From positions 1 through 57,759 of IMG/VR virus record IMGVR_UViG_3300048930_001334: DNA of 57,759 nt; one strand, written 5' to 3'. The notes under the pieces were generated by a model. That model had not been told where the DNA came from. It searched no databases and saw only the letters and a list, made by a program, of their open reading frames with translations. This DNA is from a virus (Duplodnaviria > Caudoviricetes). Shown here in pieces: positions 52,049 through 57,759 of this stretch. A program made the translations under genes and the position numbers. How positions within the stretch are numbered: the first letter of the stretch is position 1; each line of letters opens with the position of its first letter.

Positions 52049-52699
52049 ATGAGCATCGCAACACTGATCCTCGGCAGCAGCGGTTCCGGCAAGTCCACCA
52101 GCCTGCGCAATCTCGACCCGGCCAAGACCTTCCTGATCCAGTGCATCAAGAAGCCGCTCCCGTTCAAGGCGGCTGGCTGGAAACAGCGCCTGAACATGAA
52201 GACGCCGGGGAACGTCTACCAGACCAGTGACCCGGTGGAAATCGAGAAGCTGATGCGCAGCAGCCCGCACGAGGTTTTCGTCATTGACGACTATCAGGCT
52301 GTCATGGTCAGCGAGCTGATGAACCGATCCAGCGAGAAGGGCTACGACAAATTCACAGACATCGGCCGCCACGCTTGGGACATCTTCAACGCAGCCGGTG
52401 CGCTGGACGAAAAGCGCCGCGTCTACATCCTGGCACACACCAACACCGACGAGTTCGGGAACGTCCGCATGAAGACGGTCGGGAAGCTGGTGGATCAGCA
52501 CATCGTGCCGGAAGGATTTTTCACCATCGTGCTGCGCACTGATGTCGTCAACGGCCAGTACACGTTCCGCACCCAGACCAACGGGCAAGACTGCTGCAAG
52601 TCGCCCATCGGCATGTTCCCTGACCTTGCCATCCCCAACGACATCGCAGAGGTTGACCGCGCCATCTGCGAGTTCTACGACCTGACCCAAGCGGCATAA
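52049..52699 (+). CDS. AAA ATPase, Sak4-like recombinase
   Basis: GSSGSGKST Walker A, VIDD Walker B, YILAH; paired with an SSB-like gene. Confidence 0.8.
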   Translation: MSIATLILGSSGSGKSTSLRNLDPAKTFLIQCIKKPLPFKAAGWKQRLNMKTPGNVYQTSDPVEIEKLMRSSPHEVFVIDDYQAVMVSELMNRSSEKGYDKFTDIGRHAWDIFNAAGALDEKRRVYILAHTNTDEFGNVRMKTVGKLVDQHIVPEGFFTIVLRTDVVNGQYTFRTQTNGQDCCKSPIGMFPDLAIPNDIAEVDRAICEFYDLTQAA

Positions 52700-52724
52700 C
52701 CACACCACCACAAGGAAACACACC

Positions 52725-53342
52725 ATGTACGCACTCGACACCACCGCCGCCAAAAAGGCCGATCAAACCGGCTCGCGCATCAACGAACTCGGCAAGTACG
52801 TCGGCCAGTTCAAGCAGGCCGAAGACATCACCGCCAGCACCGGCACGAAAGGTATTGCCCTGCGCTTTGAAGCCAACGGCCAGACCGCCGACCTGTCGAT
52901 CTACACCCAGCGCGCCAACGGCGAGCAGATCATGGGCTATCAGGCACTCATGGCCATCATGACCTGCCTGCAACTGCGCAACATCGCCCCCAAGCCCGGC
53001 ATGGTCAAGCATTGGGACAACGACGCGCGGCAGGAAGTCGAGAAGCAGGCCCAGGTGTTCCCGGACCTGTGCGGCAAGGAAATTGGCCTGCTGCTGGAAA
53101 CCGAGGACTACACCAAGAAAGACGGCGGAATCGGCACGCGCATGGTCATCGCCGGGATCTTCCAGGCCAAGACCGAGTTGACGGCTTCGGAGATTCTGGA
53201 CCGCAAGACAACGCCCGAGCATCTGGCAAAGATGGTTGCCCGCCTGCGTCACCGTCCTGTCAAGGGCGAAGCCGCTCCGGCCCGCCGCGAGTCGTCATCG
53301 GCTCCCAGCGGGTTCGACATGGATGAAGAAATCCCGTTCTGA
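52725..53342 (+). CDS. Putative single-stranded DNA-binding protein
   Basis: Acidic tail DMDEEIPF; follows the Sak4-like ATPase. Confidence 0.65.
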   Translation: MYALDTTAAKKADQTGSRINELGKYVGQFKQAEDITASTGTKGIALRFEANGQTADLSIYTQRANGEQIMGYQALMAIMTCLQLRNIAPKPGMVKHWDNDARQEVEKQAQVFPDLCGKEIGLLLETEDYTKKDGGIGTRMVIAGIFQAKTELTASEILDRKTTPEHLAKMVARLRHRPVKGEAAPARRESSSAPSGFDMDEEIPF

Positions 53343-53350
53343 GGTGACAA

Positions 53351-54034
53351 ATGCAAACCCTGTTCATCGATATCGAAACCATCCCGACCGACCGTGATGA
53401 CGTGCGCGAGTACGTCGCCGCCAAGATCACGCCACCCGGCAACATCAGCAAGGCCGAAACCATCGCCAAGTGGGAAGCTGAGAGCAAGCCTGCAGCGATT
53501 GAAGAGGCGGTGCACAAGACCAGCCTTGACGGCGCATTTGGTCGCGTGTGCGTGATCTGCTGGGCGCTGGATGATGGCCCGATCCGCACTGTCAAGAGCG
53601 CACAAGACGAAGCCGGTCTATTGGAGACGTTCGCCGACTGGCTGCGCTTGGATGTGAAGTCCACCGACCTGTTTGAAACCGCCGTGTGCGGCCACAACGT
53701 CAGCGGCTTTGATCTGCGTTTTCTGGCGCAGCGCTTCACCGTGCACGGCATCAGACCGCCAGCCATCATCGGACGCGCCGCCAGTGCCAAGCCTTGGGAA
53801 TCCGACAAGGTGTTTGACACGATGGTTCAGTGGGCAGGCGTTGGCAATCGCGTGAGCCTGGAGAAGCTGTGCCTTGCCTTGGGCATCGAATCGCCGAAGA
53901 ACGATCTTGACGGCTCCAAGGTTGCCGCTGCTGTTGCTGCTGGCCGCCTGGATGACGTGGCGACGTACTGCGCTGGTGACGTTGAAGCCGTGCGCAAGGT
54001 GTTCAACCGGCTGACGTTTGCGGTGGCCGCATGA
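53351..54034 (+). CDS. 3'-5' exonuclease (DEDDy, PolB/DnaQ-like)
   Basis: IDIET, GHNVSGFDL, YCAGDV. Confidence 0.85.
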   Translation: MQTLFIDIETIPTDRDDVREYVAAKITPPGNISKAETIAKWEAESKPAAIEEAVHKTSLDGAFGRVCVICWALDDGPIRTVKSAQDEAGLLETFADWLRLDVKSTDLFETAVCGHNVSGFDLRFLAQRFTVHGIRPPAIIGRAASAKPWESDKVFDTMVQWAGVGNRVSLEKLCLALGIESPKNDLDGSKVAAAVAAGRLDDVATYCAGDVEAVRKVFNRLTFAVAA

Positions 54035-54159
54035 GTCGCATGTCTGAACGCTGGCGCGAGCAACAAGACCGCCAAGAGCAAGGGCCGAATGAAGCCATCT
54101 GCGCCGCCATCAGCGCCCACGTCCTGGCTGCGCCTGTCAAGGCACTGGAGGCGGCGTAA
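54031..54159 (+). CDS. Putative 42-aa peptide
   Basis: ATGA overlap with the exonuclease stop; MSRMSERWREQQ...LEAA. Confidence 0.4.
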   Translation: MSRMSERWREQQDRQEQGPNEAICAAISAHVLAAPVKALEAA

Positions 54160-54194
54160 CTCACGCGGGGCCATCCAATCCTTTCACCTTTGAC

Positions 54195-54319
54195 TGGCCC
54201 ACAAGGGAACCAGCCGACTCTGCAAGCCCACCGCGTCCCGCCCGATTGAATTGCGCGGTGGAGCTTGTCAACCAGTGGATGGCCGCAAGCATAGAGCTGG
54301 AAAGAGTCGGAACGGGCCA
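54195..54319 (+). ncRNA. Candidate multi-branched structured RNA
   Basis: Four nested complementary segments and a C-GCAA-G tetraloop in the intergenic region before rdgC. Confidence 0.45.
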
Positions 54320-54346
54320 CACGAATAACCCAACACACACACCACC

Positions 54347-55258
54347 ATGTTCAAGACCCTCAACATCTTCCGCATCACCTCCGGCTGGAATCAGGAGCCC
54401 GACACCGGAACCATGGACGACATGGCCGACGCCATGCCCTTCACGCCCTGCACCGCCACGCAAGACAAGTCCGTGGGCTGGGTTCCGCCGCGTGGTGAAA
54501 ACCACGGCGCCCTGGTCGAGTCCATCAACGGCCACAGCATCATGAAGCTGATGATCGAAACCAAGTCGGTCCCCAGCGCCACGGTCAAGAAGAAGGCCCA
54601 GGAAGCGGCCGACCACATCGAAGCCACTACCGGCCGCAAGCCCGGCAAGAAGGAAATGAAGGAACTGCGCGAGGACGCGCTGACCGCCCTGCTGCCCCAG
54701 GCTTTCCCCAAGCAGACCGCCGTGCTGGTGTGGTTCGACTTCGCCGCTGGCCTGCTGATGACCGACGCCAGCAGCCAGGGCAAGAGCGATGAAGTCATCA
54801 CCGCCCTGGTGCGGACCTTCGACGGCCTGGCGCTGGCCTACGTGCAGACCAAGACCGCACCGCAAGCCGCGATGACCGAATGGCTGGTGGCCACCGACAC
54901 CGAATACGAATGGCCCGAAGGATTCGCCATCGAACGCGCCTGCGAACTGCGCAGCGCCGACGAAGAGAAGTCGGTGGTCAAGTTCAACCGCCACAACCTG
55001 CAGAACGATGTCGTGCGCCGCCACATCAGCGAAGGCAAGCTGCCCAAGTGGGCCGCTATGAGCTGGGAGGGCCGCATCGGCTTCGTGCTGACCGACACCA
55101 TGCAGCTCAAGAAGATCGAGTATCTGGAGGGCGTGTTTGAAGACCGCGCAGACGACGAAGAAAGCGGCTTCGACGCCGACGTGGCGCTGGCCACCGGTGA
55201 ACTGCGCAAGCTGATTCCTGCGCTGGTCGATGCCCTGGGCGGCGAGGTGGTGGCATGA
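54347..55258 (+). CDS. rdgC: Recombination-associated protein RdgC
   Basis: MFKTLNIFR...GWVPPRG...LLPQAF...FDADVAL.TGEL..LI..LVDALGGE. Confidence 0.93.
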   Translation: MFKTLNIFRITSGWNQEPDTGTMDDMADAMPFTPCTATQDKSVGWVPPRGENHGALVESINGHSIMKLMIETKSVPSATVKKKAQEAADHIEATTGRKPGKKEMKELREDALTALLPQAFPKQTAVLVWFDFAAGLLMTDASSQGKSDEVITALVRTFDGLALAYVQTKTAPQAAMTEWLVATDTEYEWPEGFAIERACELRSADEEKSVVKFNRHNLQNDVVRRHISEGKLPKWAAMSWEGRIGFVLTDTMQLKKIEYLEGVFEDRADDEESGFDADVALATGELRKLIPALVDALGGEVVA

Positions 55259-55563
55259 ATATCGAGGAACTGAAACTGGTCCTGTCAACCATCAACCAAG
55301 TGTCATCCGACGCCAGCAATGCGGCGATTGTCTGGATGGGTTTGCACTATGGGCTGGACTTCTTGGAAACGGTCGGCATTACGTTGGCTATTGCATGGAC
55401 CGTTGTTACCGGAATCCGCTCCGTTGCTGCAGCCAGCGAATGGGCCGAAATCGGCCGGCGCGTTGTCCGTTCACACGGCGGGCGTGGCGGGTACATGGTT
55501 TTCGATGAAGACCACAAAGCCGCTGAACGCGCCATGAAAAAAGACGAAAGGAAATCAGCATGA
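55255..55563 (+). CDS. Hypothetical membrane protein
   Basis: 102 aa, ATGA overlap, hydrophobic centre. Confidence 0.6.
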   Translation: MNIEELKLVLSTINQVSSDASNAAIVWMGLHYGLDFLETVGITLAIAWTVVTGIRSVAAASEWAEIGRRVVRSHGGRGGYMVFDEDHKAAERAMKKDERKSA

Positions 55564-55764
55564 ACAAGAGCATTGACGATCTCGTGGATCGACTCCGCAA
55601 AGAGACTGCCGCCCTGCGCGTAGCAGCGAACAACGTGGTCGGAGAGAACGAAGCCCTGCGCGAGCGGGTGGCGAGCCGTGGAGCACGGCTTCGATGACAG
55701 CAAGACGCCCAACACCGAAGCGCAGCGGGCCGCCGCAGGCGGTCCGACTGGCGCGCAGAGTTAG
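55560..55764 (+). pseudogene. Small coiled-coil ORF, apparently frameshifted near 55671
   Basis: MNKSIDD...EALRERV stops at 55697. Removing one G at ~55671 continues it as RAVEHGFDDSKTPNTEAQ...AQS* through attC-like site 1, in the same Asn frame as the two downstream genes. Confidence 0.45.
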
Positions 55765-55766
55765 AG
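55707..55766 (-). repeat. attC-like site 1 (60 bp)
   Basis: Minus strand CTCTAAC-TCTGC-GCGCCAGT-CGGACCGCCTGCGGCGGCCC-GCTGCGC-TTCGGT-GTTGGGC. Confidence 0.8.
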
Positions 55767-55776
55767 GGCCGACACG

Positions 55777-56121
55777 ATGGAAACAGTTTGCATTTTGGTT
55801 GGCGGGCCAGACCGGGTGATTGTTGACCGGCTGAACAAGAAGTGGCTCTTTGAAGACCACCCGTATTGCGGGCCTGTGGTTATTGGAAAGAACGGTGACC
55901 CGCTCGAAAACCAGCCGCCTGAAAGCTCGCCATTCTGGGAGGCCGTGCAATGCTGGTATGACCAGGGCAAGCGGACGCGAAAGCCGCTGATGAACGAGAC
56001 GTGGTGCATTTGGGACAAACCGACCATGCAGAAGATGCGCCACCTTGGCGGGGTGCATTACATGCTGGTGACGGATGAGTCCTCTAACACCCCAATCAGC
56101 GGCGGCACGTCCGCTGCATAA
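55777..56121 (+). CDS. Hypothetical cassette-borne protein
   Basis: 114 aa (WLFEDHPYCGP...SPFWEAV..W); lies between sites 1 and 2, stop codon inside site 2. Confidence 0.7.
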   Translation: METVCILVGGPDRVIVDRLNKKWLFEDHPYCGPVVIGKNGDPLENQPPESSPFWEAVQCWYDQGKRTRKPLMNETWCIWDKPTMQKMRHLGGVHYMLVTDESSNTPISGGTSAA

Positions 56122-56132
56122 CAGAGTTCGGC
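56082..56132 (-). repeat. attC-like site 2 (51 bp)
   Basis: Minus strand GCCGAAC-TCTGT-TATGCAGC-GGACGTGCCGCC-GCTGATT-GGGGT-GTTAGAG. Confidence 0.8.
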
Positions 56133-56153
56133 ACTGCCGATGGAAAGGAAACC

Positions 56154-56597
56154 ATGAGCGACTACGAAAACGCCGCATTTGAAGAGGCTGCAAAGCACAT
56201 TCTTGCACTGGCAAGGTCAGGAGATAAGTACCAAGACGGGTACACGCAAACGTGTTGGGAGCTATGGAAGGTCCGCGCAGCGCTTCCAGGGGCAGCGGCA
56301 GCAGACGTGCTGGCCGAACGCCAGCGCCAGATCACAGCAGAAGGATGGACACCAGAGCACGACGACGAACACATGGAGGTCGATGCCGGACGCGGATTGA
56401 CAGAACTGGCCCGCGCTGCAAAGGCGTATATCGAAGCTGATGTGTACAACTGGCCTTGGACCCCAATCAGCTTCAAGCCGACATCTCCGCGCCGCAACCT
56501 CGTGAAGGCCGGCGCACTGATCCTCGCCGAGATTGAGCGATTGGACCGCTTGTCGCCGAACACCCAGCTCACCGGCCGCAGGTCCGGCGCATCGTAG
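56154..56597 (+). CDS. Conserved phage hypothetical protein, cassette-borne
   Basis: DVLAERQRQI..EGWTPEHDDEH...WPW...RRNLVKAGALILAEIERLDR; AAGGA SD; stop inside site 3. Confidence 0.8.
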   Translation: MSDYENAAFEEAAKHILALARSGDKYQDGYTQTCWELWKVRAALPGAAAADVLAERQRQITAEGWTPEHDDEHMEVDAGRGLTELARAAKAYIEADVYNWPWTPISFKPTSPRRNLVKAGALILAEIERLDRLSPNTQLTGRRSGAS

Positions 56598-56605
56598 AGT
56601 TTGGC
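56555..56605 (-). repeat. attC-like site 3 (51 bp)
   Basis: Minus strand GCCAAAC-TCTAC-GATGCGCC-GGACCTGCGGCC-GGTGAGC-TGGGT-GTTCGGC; 2 bp after the integrase stop. Confidence 0.75.
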
Positions 56606-56607
56606 AA

Positions 56608-57759
56608 TCACCAAAGCCGCGCGGCGAGGTCTGAGCCCCGAAGATTCGCGTAGCGCGCCAGCATCGCCATGCTGCGATGTCCGGTGATCTTGGCTATCTG
56701 CATCTCGCTCAGTGTCGTGCGCTCAAACAGGCGGCTGGTGGCCTCGTGCCGAAGGTCGTGGAAGTGCAAGCCCTTGCACCCAGCCGCCTCAAAAATCCCG
56801 CCTGACCTGTTGTTGTGGAACAACTTGGAAAGCCGGTCTGACAGCTCGGCCAGGTCGCGCTCTTTGACCGATCCATCCCACCACGGGAACAGCGCGTCAG
56901 GCTTGGCGCAGGCCGCCGCATCGCGCCCGGTGTCGATGTAGGCCGTCAGCACTGCCAGCGCGACGGAACTCAGCGGCACCTGCCGCTTGTCGCCGTTCTT
57001 GGTCTTGTCCAGAAACACCGTGCGCCGCGGCAGATCCACCTGATCGAGCGTCAGCGTGTATATCTCGCGCAACCGCATCGCCGACTCCACCGCCAGGATG
57101 AACAGCACGCGCAGCGCCTGGGCGTGCTCCAGTTTCAGCGGGCGCTGCTTGCGCGGCAGCACGCCGGCGTCCAGCACGGCCAGGATGCGCTCGTACTCTC
57201 CCTGCTCAAGTCGCCGGTCCCGGCTGACATCCTCGCGGCCATCGCCGGCCATGGCCGCATCCGCCTTGCTGTACTGCGCATAGCCATCGGGCAGCGTGCG
57301 CAGCGGGTGGTCCGGCATCGTCAAATGGCCCTTGCGCATCCCCCAATCCGTGCAGCGGGCCAGCGCGCCGACTTTCGCGCGGATCGTGGCCGGCGCCAGC
57401 TTCTCCACACGCTTCAACTCGGACACCCACGCATCCACCCAGGCGGCATTGATGCTGGCAAGCGGCGTGTCTCCCTTGGTCTTGCAGACCGCCGTGAGCT
57501 GCTGCACGTCCTTGGGCTTCGGGCTGGCCTCGCGCATGTAGAGCGTCACCAGGCCGTCGATGGTCAGCACGCGAGACGGCGCCTTGAGTTCGCCGGGCAC
57601 GATGCCGCGGTCCAGCAGTGCCTCGACCTTCTTCACGTACTCGCGCGCCTGGTCCTCCTGCTCTTGCGGGTAGGTTAGATAGATCGGCTTTTCCAGCAAG
57701 CCGGCGCGCTTGATGACGAACTGAACCGTTCCGTTTGGGAATCGCTTGATGCCTGCCAT
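56608..57759 (-). CDS. int: Tyrosine recombinase / phage integrase (Rci/HP1-like)
   Basis: AMRLREI (R), KTKNG (K), FHDLRHEA (HxxR), ITGH, LARY (Y). Confidence 0.93.
   Translation of the reverse strand: MAGIKRFPNGTVQFVIKRAGLLEKPIYLTYPQEQEDQAREYVKKVEALLDRGIVPGELKAPSRVLTIDGLVTLYMREASPKPKDVQQLTAVCKTKGDTPLASINAAWVDAWVSELKRVEKLAPATIRAKVGALARCTDWGMRKGHLTMPDHPLRTLPDGYAQYSKADAAMAGDGREDVSRDRRLEQGEYERILAVLDAGVLPRKQRPLKLEHAQALRVLFILAVESAMRLREIYTLTLDQVDLPRRTVFLDKTKNGDKRQVPLSSVALAVLTAYIDTGRDAAACAKPDALFPWWDGSVKERDLAELSDRLSKLFHNNRSGGIFEAAGCKGLHFHDLRHEATSRLFERTTLSEMQIAKITGHRSMAMLARYANLRGSDLAARLW

What the first reader, a model, noticed from the sequence alone, without database searches (positions are those of the whole stretch)
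55560..56597. Cassette genes are antisense to attC and borrow their stop codons from the neighbouring site
Seen: the genes are on + while the attC asymmetry is canonical on -. Both ORFs cross the predicted crossover with the core AAC read as an in-frame Asn and stop inside the adjacent site (..SN-TPISGGTSAA*, TAA 56119-21; ..PN-TQLTGRRSGAS*, TAG 56595-97). Site 1 also has a stop in that frame (PN-TEAQ...AQS*, TAG 55762-64). Established: ordinary cassettes carry genes in the attC sense with their own stop before or in R''. Inference: this is a distinct architecture where a fixed frame at the crossover lets any cassette end in any neighbour's attC, so shuffling swaps C-terminal tails.
Basis: partly seen in the sequence, partly recalled or inferred. 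Interest (0 to 1): 0.8.

Follow-up and report, generated by a model that had tools for sequence, protein, structure and literature searches.

The report
Back-to-front integron cassettes in a prophage
Two small early genes of a temperate phage sit in integron-type mobile cassettes mounted the opposite way round from ordinary ones, so each gene runs across the recombination point and takes its last few amino acids and its stop codon from whichever cassette lies next.

Summary
Three attC-type sites (55707-55766, 56082-56132, 56555-56605) bracket two genes at the integrase end of a provirus. A model built only from 25 attC sites of a Thermomonas chromosomal integron finds all three on the + strand and nothing else in the window. 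That orientation is the recombinogenic bottom strand of a class 1 attC, so the + strand genes are antisense to the usual cassette polarity. Both ORFs read the crossover AAC as Asn and stop in the next site. Relatives 83-94% identical diverge directly after that Asn.

Of 33 distinct cassettes in related arrays:
- 16 read through, always in the Asn frame
- 9 use the TAA inside the TAAC box
- 6 have their own stop
- 2 are unclear

So the frame is biased, not fixed, and I found no evidence that the tails have a function.

The neighbouring integrase is not an IntI, and 26 of 27 of its relatives lack such sites. A host IntI acting in trans is the likeliest recombinase.

attC clusters in phages are published (Qi et al. 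2023). I did not find the back-to-front mounting or the borrowed stops in print. Earlier notes of this scan report backwards phage arrays on other DNA.

The parts
55707..55766 (+). attC-type site S1, with the bottom strand on +. R' box GCCCAAC (AAC 55711-13), R'' box GTTAGAG (GTT 55760-62).
   Evidence: R1 54.5 bits on + against 17.4 on -. Independent R2 41.1 bits on +. The constrained fold has a 6/5-nt unpaired spacer and a 15-bp stem with two single-base bulges on the 3' arm.
55713..56087 (+). Cassette A as bounded by AA|C crossovers: the S1 body plus gene 2, which lacks its own stop.
   Evidence: Homology blocks in relatives end at the AAC after the gene. The flanks GTTAGAGG and CCTCTAAC are complementary.
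55777..56121 (+). Gene 2, 114 aa, unknown function. The last 10 residues and the TAA stop lie in S2.
   Evidence: ORF list. 31 homologues. Tails diverge after Asn. No Pfam, NCBIfam or PHROG match.
56082..56132 (+). attC-type site S2, short (51 bp). R' box CTCTAAC, R'' box GTTCGGC.
   Evidence: R1 37.1 bits on +. R2 21.0 bits on +, E 0.004. 73% identical to S3.
56088..56560 (+). Cassette B: the S2 body plus gene 3, which lacks its own stop.
   Evidence: The flanks GTTCGGC and GCCGAAC are complementary. Homology of gene 3 relatives ends near residue 132-141.
56154..56597 (+). Gene 3, 147 aa. It is a domain common in phage proteins. The last 11 residues and the TAG stop lie in S3.
   Evidence: 576 relatives in viral contigs. 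9 PHROG families of unknown function. None of the 80 best relatives' loci holds a site.
56555..56605 (+). attC-type site S3, short and degenerate. R' box GCCGAAC, R'' box GTTTGGC. It ends 2 nt from the integrase stop codon.
   Evidence: R1 40.8 bits on +. R2 17.2 bits on +, E 0.05. The fold is no better than shuffles.
56608..57759 (-). Phage tyrosine integrase. It is not an integron integrase and is probably not the cassette recombinase.
   Evidence: PF00589 at 77 bits. No TIGR02249 hit. 26 of 27 relatives' loci have no site. Homology with relatives ends at the stop codon.
52049..55697 (+). Phage early recombination operon that reads into the cassettes: Sak4-like annealase, SSB, 3'-5' exonuclease, RdgC and two small ORFs.
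   Evidence: PHROG and Pfam/NCBIfam hits. Overlapping stops and starts. No promoter-like site in 54000-57759.

Best explanation
This is a small cluster of integron attC sites without an integron integrase (a CALIN): three sites and two cassettes. It sits at the distal end of the early recombination operon of a temperate phage, directly against the phage integrase gene.

The sites belong to the attC class of Xanthomonadales-type chromosomal integrons and of class 1 resistance cassettes. Their recombinogenic bottom strand is the phage + strand. Each mobile unit therefore runs from the C of one AA|C, through the site body and the following gene, to the AA of the next AA|C.

The genes lie on the bottom strand, the reverse of ordinary cassettes. 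That orientation lets the phage operon transcribe them. The R' box overlaps the 3' end of each ORF. An ORF whose frame reads AAC as Asn has no stop of its own and terminates in whatever follows, so its last 1-35 residues depend on its neighbour.

Shown: the identity and strand of the sites, the position of the breakpoints, the read-through, and the divergence of tails.

Inferred: a host IntI acts in trans; the tails are a tolerated by-product; the Asn frame is favoured because attC sites usually supply a stop in that frame.
For: Strand and class of the sites:
- A site of the Thermomonas array (L086) matches class 1 attC sites at 87-90% identity in at least 5000 plasmid records.
- Oriented like that query, aadB lies on the - strand with its attC 3' of it, and intI1 lies on +.
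- Model R1 scores that attC 64.8 bits in this orientation against 28.6 in the other. All 64 primary hits in the window and 74 loci are on the gene-sense strand. The 20 minus-strand hits are weaker echoes at the same places.
- The independent model R2 gives 86.3 against 22.4 bits for the class 1 attC and finds S1-S3 on + only.
- This matches the published description of the bottom strand: a 5' RYYYAAC box that is cleaved between A and C, with the extrahelical bases on the L'' arm (Nivina 2016, PMC5027507, passages).

Control within one genome:
- The Thermomonas chromosome has intI and 25 attC sites at E <= 1e-7 (26 at E <= 0.1) beside it in the opposite relation to the genes.
- There the genes with Pfam support (bPH_4, N6_N4_Mtase, Methyltransf_31) lie on the top strand.

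Breakpoints:
- Tails differ directly after Asn in homologues 83-94% identical.
- L098 homology ends at TCTAAC.
- The upstream site stays with the gene in 3 pairs (L086/L087, L154_4839/L155_2112, L153_4424/L156_758). The downstream site alone never does.

Cassette ends: perfect inverted repeats of 7 or more bp in 31 of 37 intervals.

Stop codons: a stop falls inside the site in the Asn frame in 43 of 50 distinct sites, against 25 of 50 in the other open frame.

The phage integrase is not involved: 26 of 27 relatives' loci lack sites. The Thermomonas array sits beside a serine recombinase instead.
Against: - No IntI is visible for this provirus, because only the 57.7-kb record is held. Trans action is therefore inferred.
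- S2 and S3 are 51 bp, below the published 57-141 bp range. Their boxes depart from RYYYAAC/GTTRRRY. The base bulged beside the stem in S2 is C, not the usual G (my reading). They score only 17-21 bits with the independent model, so they may be decayed.
- Two homologous pairs (L155_705/L157_220 and L150_700/L154_3432) show exchange of the gene alone, with breaks at both GTT and AAC. A single bottom-strand pathway does not predict this.
- S3 has no cassette gene on its GTT side, which simple insertion at a secondary site does not predict.
- The arrays compared were all found through one gene family, so the sample is biased.
Confidence: 0.75

Rival explanations
1. One reading: a purpose-built architecture in which a fixed frame at the crossover makes C-terminal tails interchangeable, and shuffling diversifies protein function.
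For: - Read-through occurs only in the Asn frame: 16 of 16 read-through cassettes, from about 10 families that are dissimilar at DNA level.
- Tails really do differ between close homologues.
- 43 of 50 sites stop that frame inside the site.
Against: - 15 of 33 cassettes do not read through.
- The tail sequence is dictated by the attC structure, and tails vary from 1 to 35 residues with no shared motif beyond the box-encoded S/P-N.
- Homologues outside cassettes end without any tail.
- No tail was tested for function.
Confidence: 0.1
2. The sites act mainly as conserved boundary sequences for relaxed homologous recombination by the phage's own Sak4/SSB system, not as IntI substrates.
For: - The operon encodes a Sak4-like annealase, SSB, an exonuclease and RdgC just upstream.
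- Two pairs show exchange of the gene alone between sites that stayed put or differ.
- No IntI is present in the record.
Against: - Breaks fall on the AAC and GTT triplets although the site bodies are only 49-58% identical in the relevant pair.
- The sites are of the same class as attC sites beside an intI in the same Thermomonas genome.
- Ends specific to each cassette are complementary over 7-12 bp, which suits a folded circular cassette and is not needed for homologous exchange.
Confidence: 0.1
3. The neighbouring phage tyrosine integrase recombines the sites, with S3 as its own cassette-like site.
For:
- One relative (L175) has three sites in the same relative orientation.
Against: - 26 of 27 relatives' loci have no site.
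- In L175 the sites lie about 1 kb from the integrase.
- In relatives, homology ends at the stop codon and a convergent gene follows.
- The Thermomonas array sits beside a serine recombinase.
- The protein has no IntI signature.
Confidence: 0.03

Closest known systems
Clusters of attC sites lacking an integron integrase (CALIN) in phage genomes (Qi et al. 2023, PMC9892861; CALIN defined by Cury et al. 2016, PMC4889954)
   Same: Two or more attC sites with cassettes and no IntI nearby, carried by a phage. The sites are presumed to be served by a bacterial IntI in trans. Qi et al. showed experimentally that phage attC sites recombine with attI1 (section 3.4 read in full).
   Different: In what I read of that paper there is nothing on genes lying antisense to attC, on cassettes made from phage core-accessory genes, or on ORFs crossing the crossover.
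Class 1 integron cassettes, such as aadB with its attC
   Same: Same attC class. The class 1 aadB attC scores 86.3 bits with the model built from the Thermomonas chromosomal attC sites. The L086 site is 87-90% identical to class 1 attC sites. Same AA|C crossover and the same complementary cassette ends.
   Different: There the gene lies on the top strand and is followed by its own attC, with intI1 and attI alongside. Here the gene lies on the bottom strand and is preceded by its attC, with no intI or attI.
ORF-11 and ORF-18 of attI1 (review PMC8876359, passages)
   Same: An ORF spans the recombination crossover and depends on the inserted neighbour for an in-phase stop, usually the TAG at positions 3-5 of GTTRRRY. 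S1 offers exactly that TAG (55762-64).
   Different: Those are short leader peptides of the platform that aid translation of the first cassette. Here whole cassette proteins borrow the stop, and from an attC rather than at attI.
Sedentary chromosomal integron of Thermomonas sp. S9
   Same: Same attC family. It lies in a genome that also holds a back-to-front array (L086) in a prophage-like island.
   Different: It has intI beside it, and the cassette genes with Pfam support lie on the top strand.

Membership tests
Integron attC site | Inverse core boxes 5'-RYYYAAC-3' and 5'-GTTRRRY-3' with invariant AAC and GTT | tested here: inconclusive
   AAC and GTT are present in all three sites. S1's 5' box GCCCAAC fits. 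The other five boxes each depart from the consensus at one position (read; consensus from PMC5027507).
Integron attC site | Imperfect hairpin of one strand, with an unpaired central spacer and extrahelical bases on the L'' (3') arm of the bottom strand | tested here: met
   S1 meets it: 6/5-nt spacer and a 15-bp stem with two bulged bases on the 3' arm of the + strand. S2 has a 6-8 bp stem with one bulged C on the 3' arm. S3 folds poorly. The feature is therefore met for S1 and weak for S2 and S3.
Integron attC site | Match to a sequence-and-structure model of attC sites known to lie beside an IntI | tested here: met
   R2, built from 25 Thermomonas chromosomal attC sites, scores S1 at 41.1 bits, S2 at 21.0 and S3 at 17.2. 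All are on +, and nothing else in the window is hit. There were 0 hits in 459 kb of other phage DNA with R1.
Integron attC site | Length 57-141 bp | tested here: inconclusive
   S1 is 60 bp. S2 and S3 are 51 bp.
Integron attC site | Recombined by an integron integrase at AA|C of the bottom strand | not testable with these tools
   There is indirect support only: homology breakpoints fall at the AAC.
Complete integron | IntI gene with its specific domain, attI and Pc beside the array | tested here: not met
   No TIGR02249 match anywhere in the record. The neighbouring recombinase matches only generic PF00589 and weak Xer models. No promoter-like site was found.
CALIN | At least two attC sites on one strand with no integron integrase nearby | tested here: met
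   Three sites on + within 900 bp. No IntI in 57.7 kb.
Canonical gene cassette | ORF on the attC top strand, followed by its own attC, which moves with it | tested here: not met
   The ORFs lie on the bottom strand. The downstream site is never the one linked to the gene.
Phage promoter-stem-loop boundary elements (PeSL type; the name is recalled, not from a call) | Early promoter plus stem-loop repeated between genes | tested here: not met
   0 promoter-like sites in 54000-57759.

The most novel reading that the evidence does not exclude
Temperate phages keep their own pool of back-to-front integron cassettes, made from phage early genes. The recombinogenic bottom strand is the non-template strand of the early operon. 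When the prophage is induced, by the same SOS signal that switches on IntI, transcription would then expose the attC hairpins and shuffle the phage's accessory genes, with attC sites doubling as stop-codon donors in one preferred frame.
Probability: 0.15. Interest if true: 0.8.

Novelty: new variant of a known kind. Interest (0 to 1): 0.6.

Why it matters
Integron cassettes are taken to be promoterless genes read in one direction from the platform promoter. How new cassettes are made is an open question.

Here ordinary phage genes sit in cassettes of the same attC class as a host chromosomal integron, but mounted so that a phage operon reads them. One of these genes has 576 relatives in viral contigs, and the loci of the 80 best of them hold no attC site. 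This points to two things:
- phages recruit the host integron recombinase to shuffle their accessory genes;
- cassettes can be formed from phage genes.

It also gives a concrete case in which recombination changes the C-terminus of a protein.

For annotation there are practical consequences. Tools that assign cassette genes by attC strand would miss these genes, and gene callers will report neighbour-dependent tails as real protein sequence.

Tried and rejected
Steps that led nowhere:
- An energy-based search for AAC..GTT hairpins found only S1 in 54001-57759.
- RNAalifold on the MAFFT alignment recovered only the R box, so I gave the inner pairs by hand for model R1.
- The exact motif in the first 84 loci hit only L022 and L057 besides the window's own copies. 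On reading them, both look like chance: L022 holds a start codon and no hairpin.
- The phage collection holds no close relative of the region, only partial matches to gene 3.
- Rfam gave nothing.
- Pfam, NCBIfam and PHROGs gave no function for gene 2.

Ideas considered and dropped:
- That the chromosomal integron of Thermomonas also holds reversed cassettes. Six site-sense ORFs there are Arg/Ala-rich, have no relatives in my loci and look spurious.
- That the 45-aa ORF 55560-55697 is a frameshifted cassette gene feeding S1. I did not test this.

Literature: searches for back-to-front cassettes or borrowed stops found none described. This covers only the held library.

Not used: complex prediction, structure prediction and the read-laying tools.

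Full report
**What is there.** The window is an IMG/VR provirus record of 57,759 bases. Its right end holds an early operon on the + strand. The operon encodes a Sak4-like annealase, SSB, a 3'-5' exonuclease, RdgC and two small ORFs. Next come gene 2 (55777-56121) and gene 3 (56154-56597). Last is a tyrosine integrase on the - strand (56608-57759). Three related imperfect palindromes lie before gene 2, between the two genes and after gene 3. The exact motif AACACC-N20-50-AGAGTT occurs three times, against 0.06 expected from shuffles. S2 and S3 are 73% identical over 55 nt. Each gene is flanked by its own inverted repeat that includes the GTT and AAC triplets: GTTAGAGG with CCTCTAAC, and GTTCGGC with GCCGAAC. 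This is the signature of integron cassette ends.

**Are they attC sites, and which strand?** A homologue of gene 2 lies in the chromosome of Thermomonas sp. S9 (L086). There it sits in an array of at least seven such cassettes, between a DNA methylase, a DUF2303 gene and a large serine recombinase.

One site of that array matches attC sites of class 1 cassettes at 87-90% identity in at least 5000 plasmid records. When a class 1 integron is oriented like that site, aadB lies on the - strand with the attC just 3' of it, and intI1 lies on +. So the gene-sense strand of the array is the bottom strand of a canonical attC.

Model R1, built from 14 sites including the window's own, gave 84 matches at E <= 1 over the window and 74 loci. 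It scored the class 1 aadB attC best, 64.8 bits in that orientation against 28.6 in the other. It placed all 64 primary hits on the gene-sense strand. The 20 minus-strand hits were weaker echoes at the same coordinates.

To remove circularity I built R2 from 25 attC sites of the Thermomonas chromosomal integron alone. R2 scores the class 1 attC 86.3 against 22.4 bits. In the window it finds S1 (41.1 bits), S2 (21.0) and S3 (17.2), all on + and nothing else.

R1 found no site in 459 kb around 80 phage relatives of gene 3, so false positives are rare.

The published description of the bottom strand fits S1 on +. That description gives a 5' RYYYAAC box cleaved between A and C, with the extrahelical bases on the L'' arm (PMC5027507, passages; fold). 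S2 and S3 are short (51 bp) and weakly structured.

**Control in one genome.** Thermomonas has an intI about 620 kb from the array; the match is split over two frames. Beside that intI lie 25 attC sites at E <= 1e-7 (26 at E <= 0.1), all in the opposite relation to their genes. The cassette genes with Pfam support there (bPH_4, N6_N4_Mtase, Methyltransf_31) lie on the top strand. The site-sense ORFs look spurious. The chromosomal integron is thus canonical, while the array in the prophage-like island of the same genome is back to front.

**Where are the breakpoints?** Gene 2 has 31 homologues. Those at 83-94% identity share ..LVTDESSN and then differ completely. Others end ..SSN..ASN or ..TPN followed by unrelated tails. 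Homologues outside cassettes stop at ..LVTD or ..LVTK.
- DNA homology with L098 (89% at protein level) ends at TCTAAC.
- L086 and L087 share a 100% identical upstream site and a 92% identical gene. They share nothing to the left of the site's TAAC or to the right of the gene's AAC.
- Among pairs of homologous cassettes, the upstream site stays with the gene in three pairs.
- The gene alone was exchanged in two pairs.
- The downstream site alone never stays with the gene.

The AAC inside the ORF is therefore a real recombination boundary, and the tail and stop belong to the neighbour. The two gene-only exchanges are not explained by bottom-strand recombination alone.

**Is the frame fixed?** There are 37 inter-site intervals, 33 after removing four duplicates. 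L101 was assigned.

| Class | Distinct cassettes |
|---|---|
| Reads AAC as Asn and stops in the next site | 16 |
| Ends on the TAA of the TAAC box | 9 |
| Own stop 8-64 nt before the AAC | 6 |
| Unclear | 2 |
| Reads through in the third frame | 0 |

The 16 read-through cassettes fall into about 10 families by DNA dissimilarity. I did not test relatedness at protein level.

Of 50 distinct sites, 43 stop the Asn frame inside the site (median 12 codons). Only 25 stop the other open frame (median 24.5 codons). 39 have T before the AAC.

So the frame is biased, not fixed. The simplest reason is that only the Asn frame reliably meets a stop.

A precedent for borrowing a stop across the crossover exists at attI1, for ORF-11 and ORF-18 (PMC8876359, passages).

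**Which recombinase?** The neighbouring integrase has no IntI signature. Of 27 relatives' loci only L175 has sites, and they lie about 1 kb away from the integrase. Elsewhere a convergent gene follows the integrase stop codon. The Thermomonas array lies beside a serine recombinase instead. A host IntI acting in trans is the best inference, but this provirus's host is not available.

**Comparison with what is known.** attC clusters in phages are published (Qi et al. 2023; abstract, passages and section 3.4 read). CALINs are defined in Cury et al. 2016 (passages). I found no description of arrays mounted back to front in a phage operon, nor of cassette proteins borrowing stops. Supplements were closed.

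Earlier unchecked notes of this scan report backwards cassette arrays in prophages of other phyla. I saw them only after reaching my reading, and I do not count them as evidence.

**Verdict.** This is a new variant of a known kind. The main weaknesses are the weak S2 and S3, the unseen host, a sample of arrays drawn through one gene family, and the two unexplained gene-only exchanges.

Noticed in passing
L085 about 610-660 and L087 about 420-470: In two different genomes the last cassette of the array joins, directly after its AAC, a homologous non-attC sequence that runs into the start of the next gene. This may be a shared secondary or entry site for the arrays.
   Followed up: no
L175 2131-2222 (- strand): The third site of this related provirus has GCT where GTT should be and contains the start of a 101-aa ORF. 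It is a decayed or hybrid site at the array end.
   Followed up: partly
G001 C1 2181927-2182864 (L190, L193): The integron integrase of Thermomonas sp. S9 matches the family model in two pieces in different frames. This is a frameshift or an assembly error in a long-read assembly.
   Followed up: no
L098 270-400: The closest DNA relative of gene 2 has no attC site upstream. Homology starts 6 nt before the ATG, and the upstream DNA is AT-rich and unlike the rest. It may be a chimeric contig or a different kind of junction.
   Followed up: partly
window 56154-56597: Residues 46-137 of gene 3 match the C-terminal ends of nine PHROG families whose profiles are 186-685 positions long. It is therefore a widespread phage domain of unknown function that here stands nearly alone.
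   Followed up: no
window 56599-56610: S3's GTT box starts 2 nt from the integrase stop codon, and homology with 27 integrase relatives ends exactly at that stop. In relatives a convergent gene occupies the place taken here by the cassettes.
   Followed up: partly
L103 2318-5394: One interval of this 10-12-site array is about 3 kb long. By eye it begins with a DNA methyltransferase-like gene, in line with the methylases reported in phage cassettes by Qi et al. I did not scan it.
   Followed up: no
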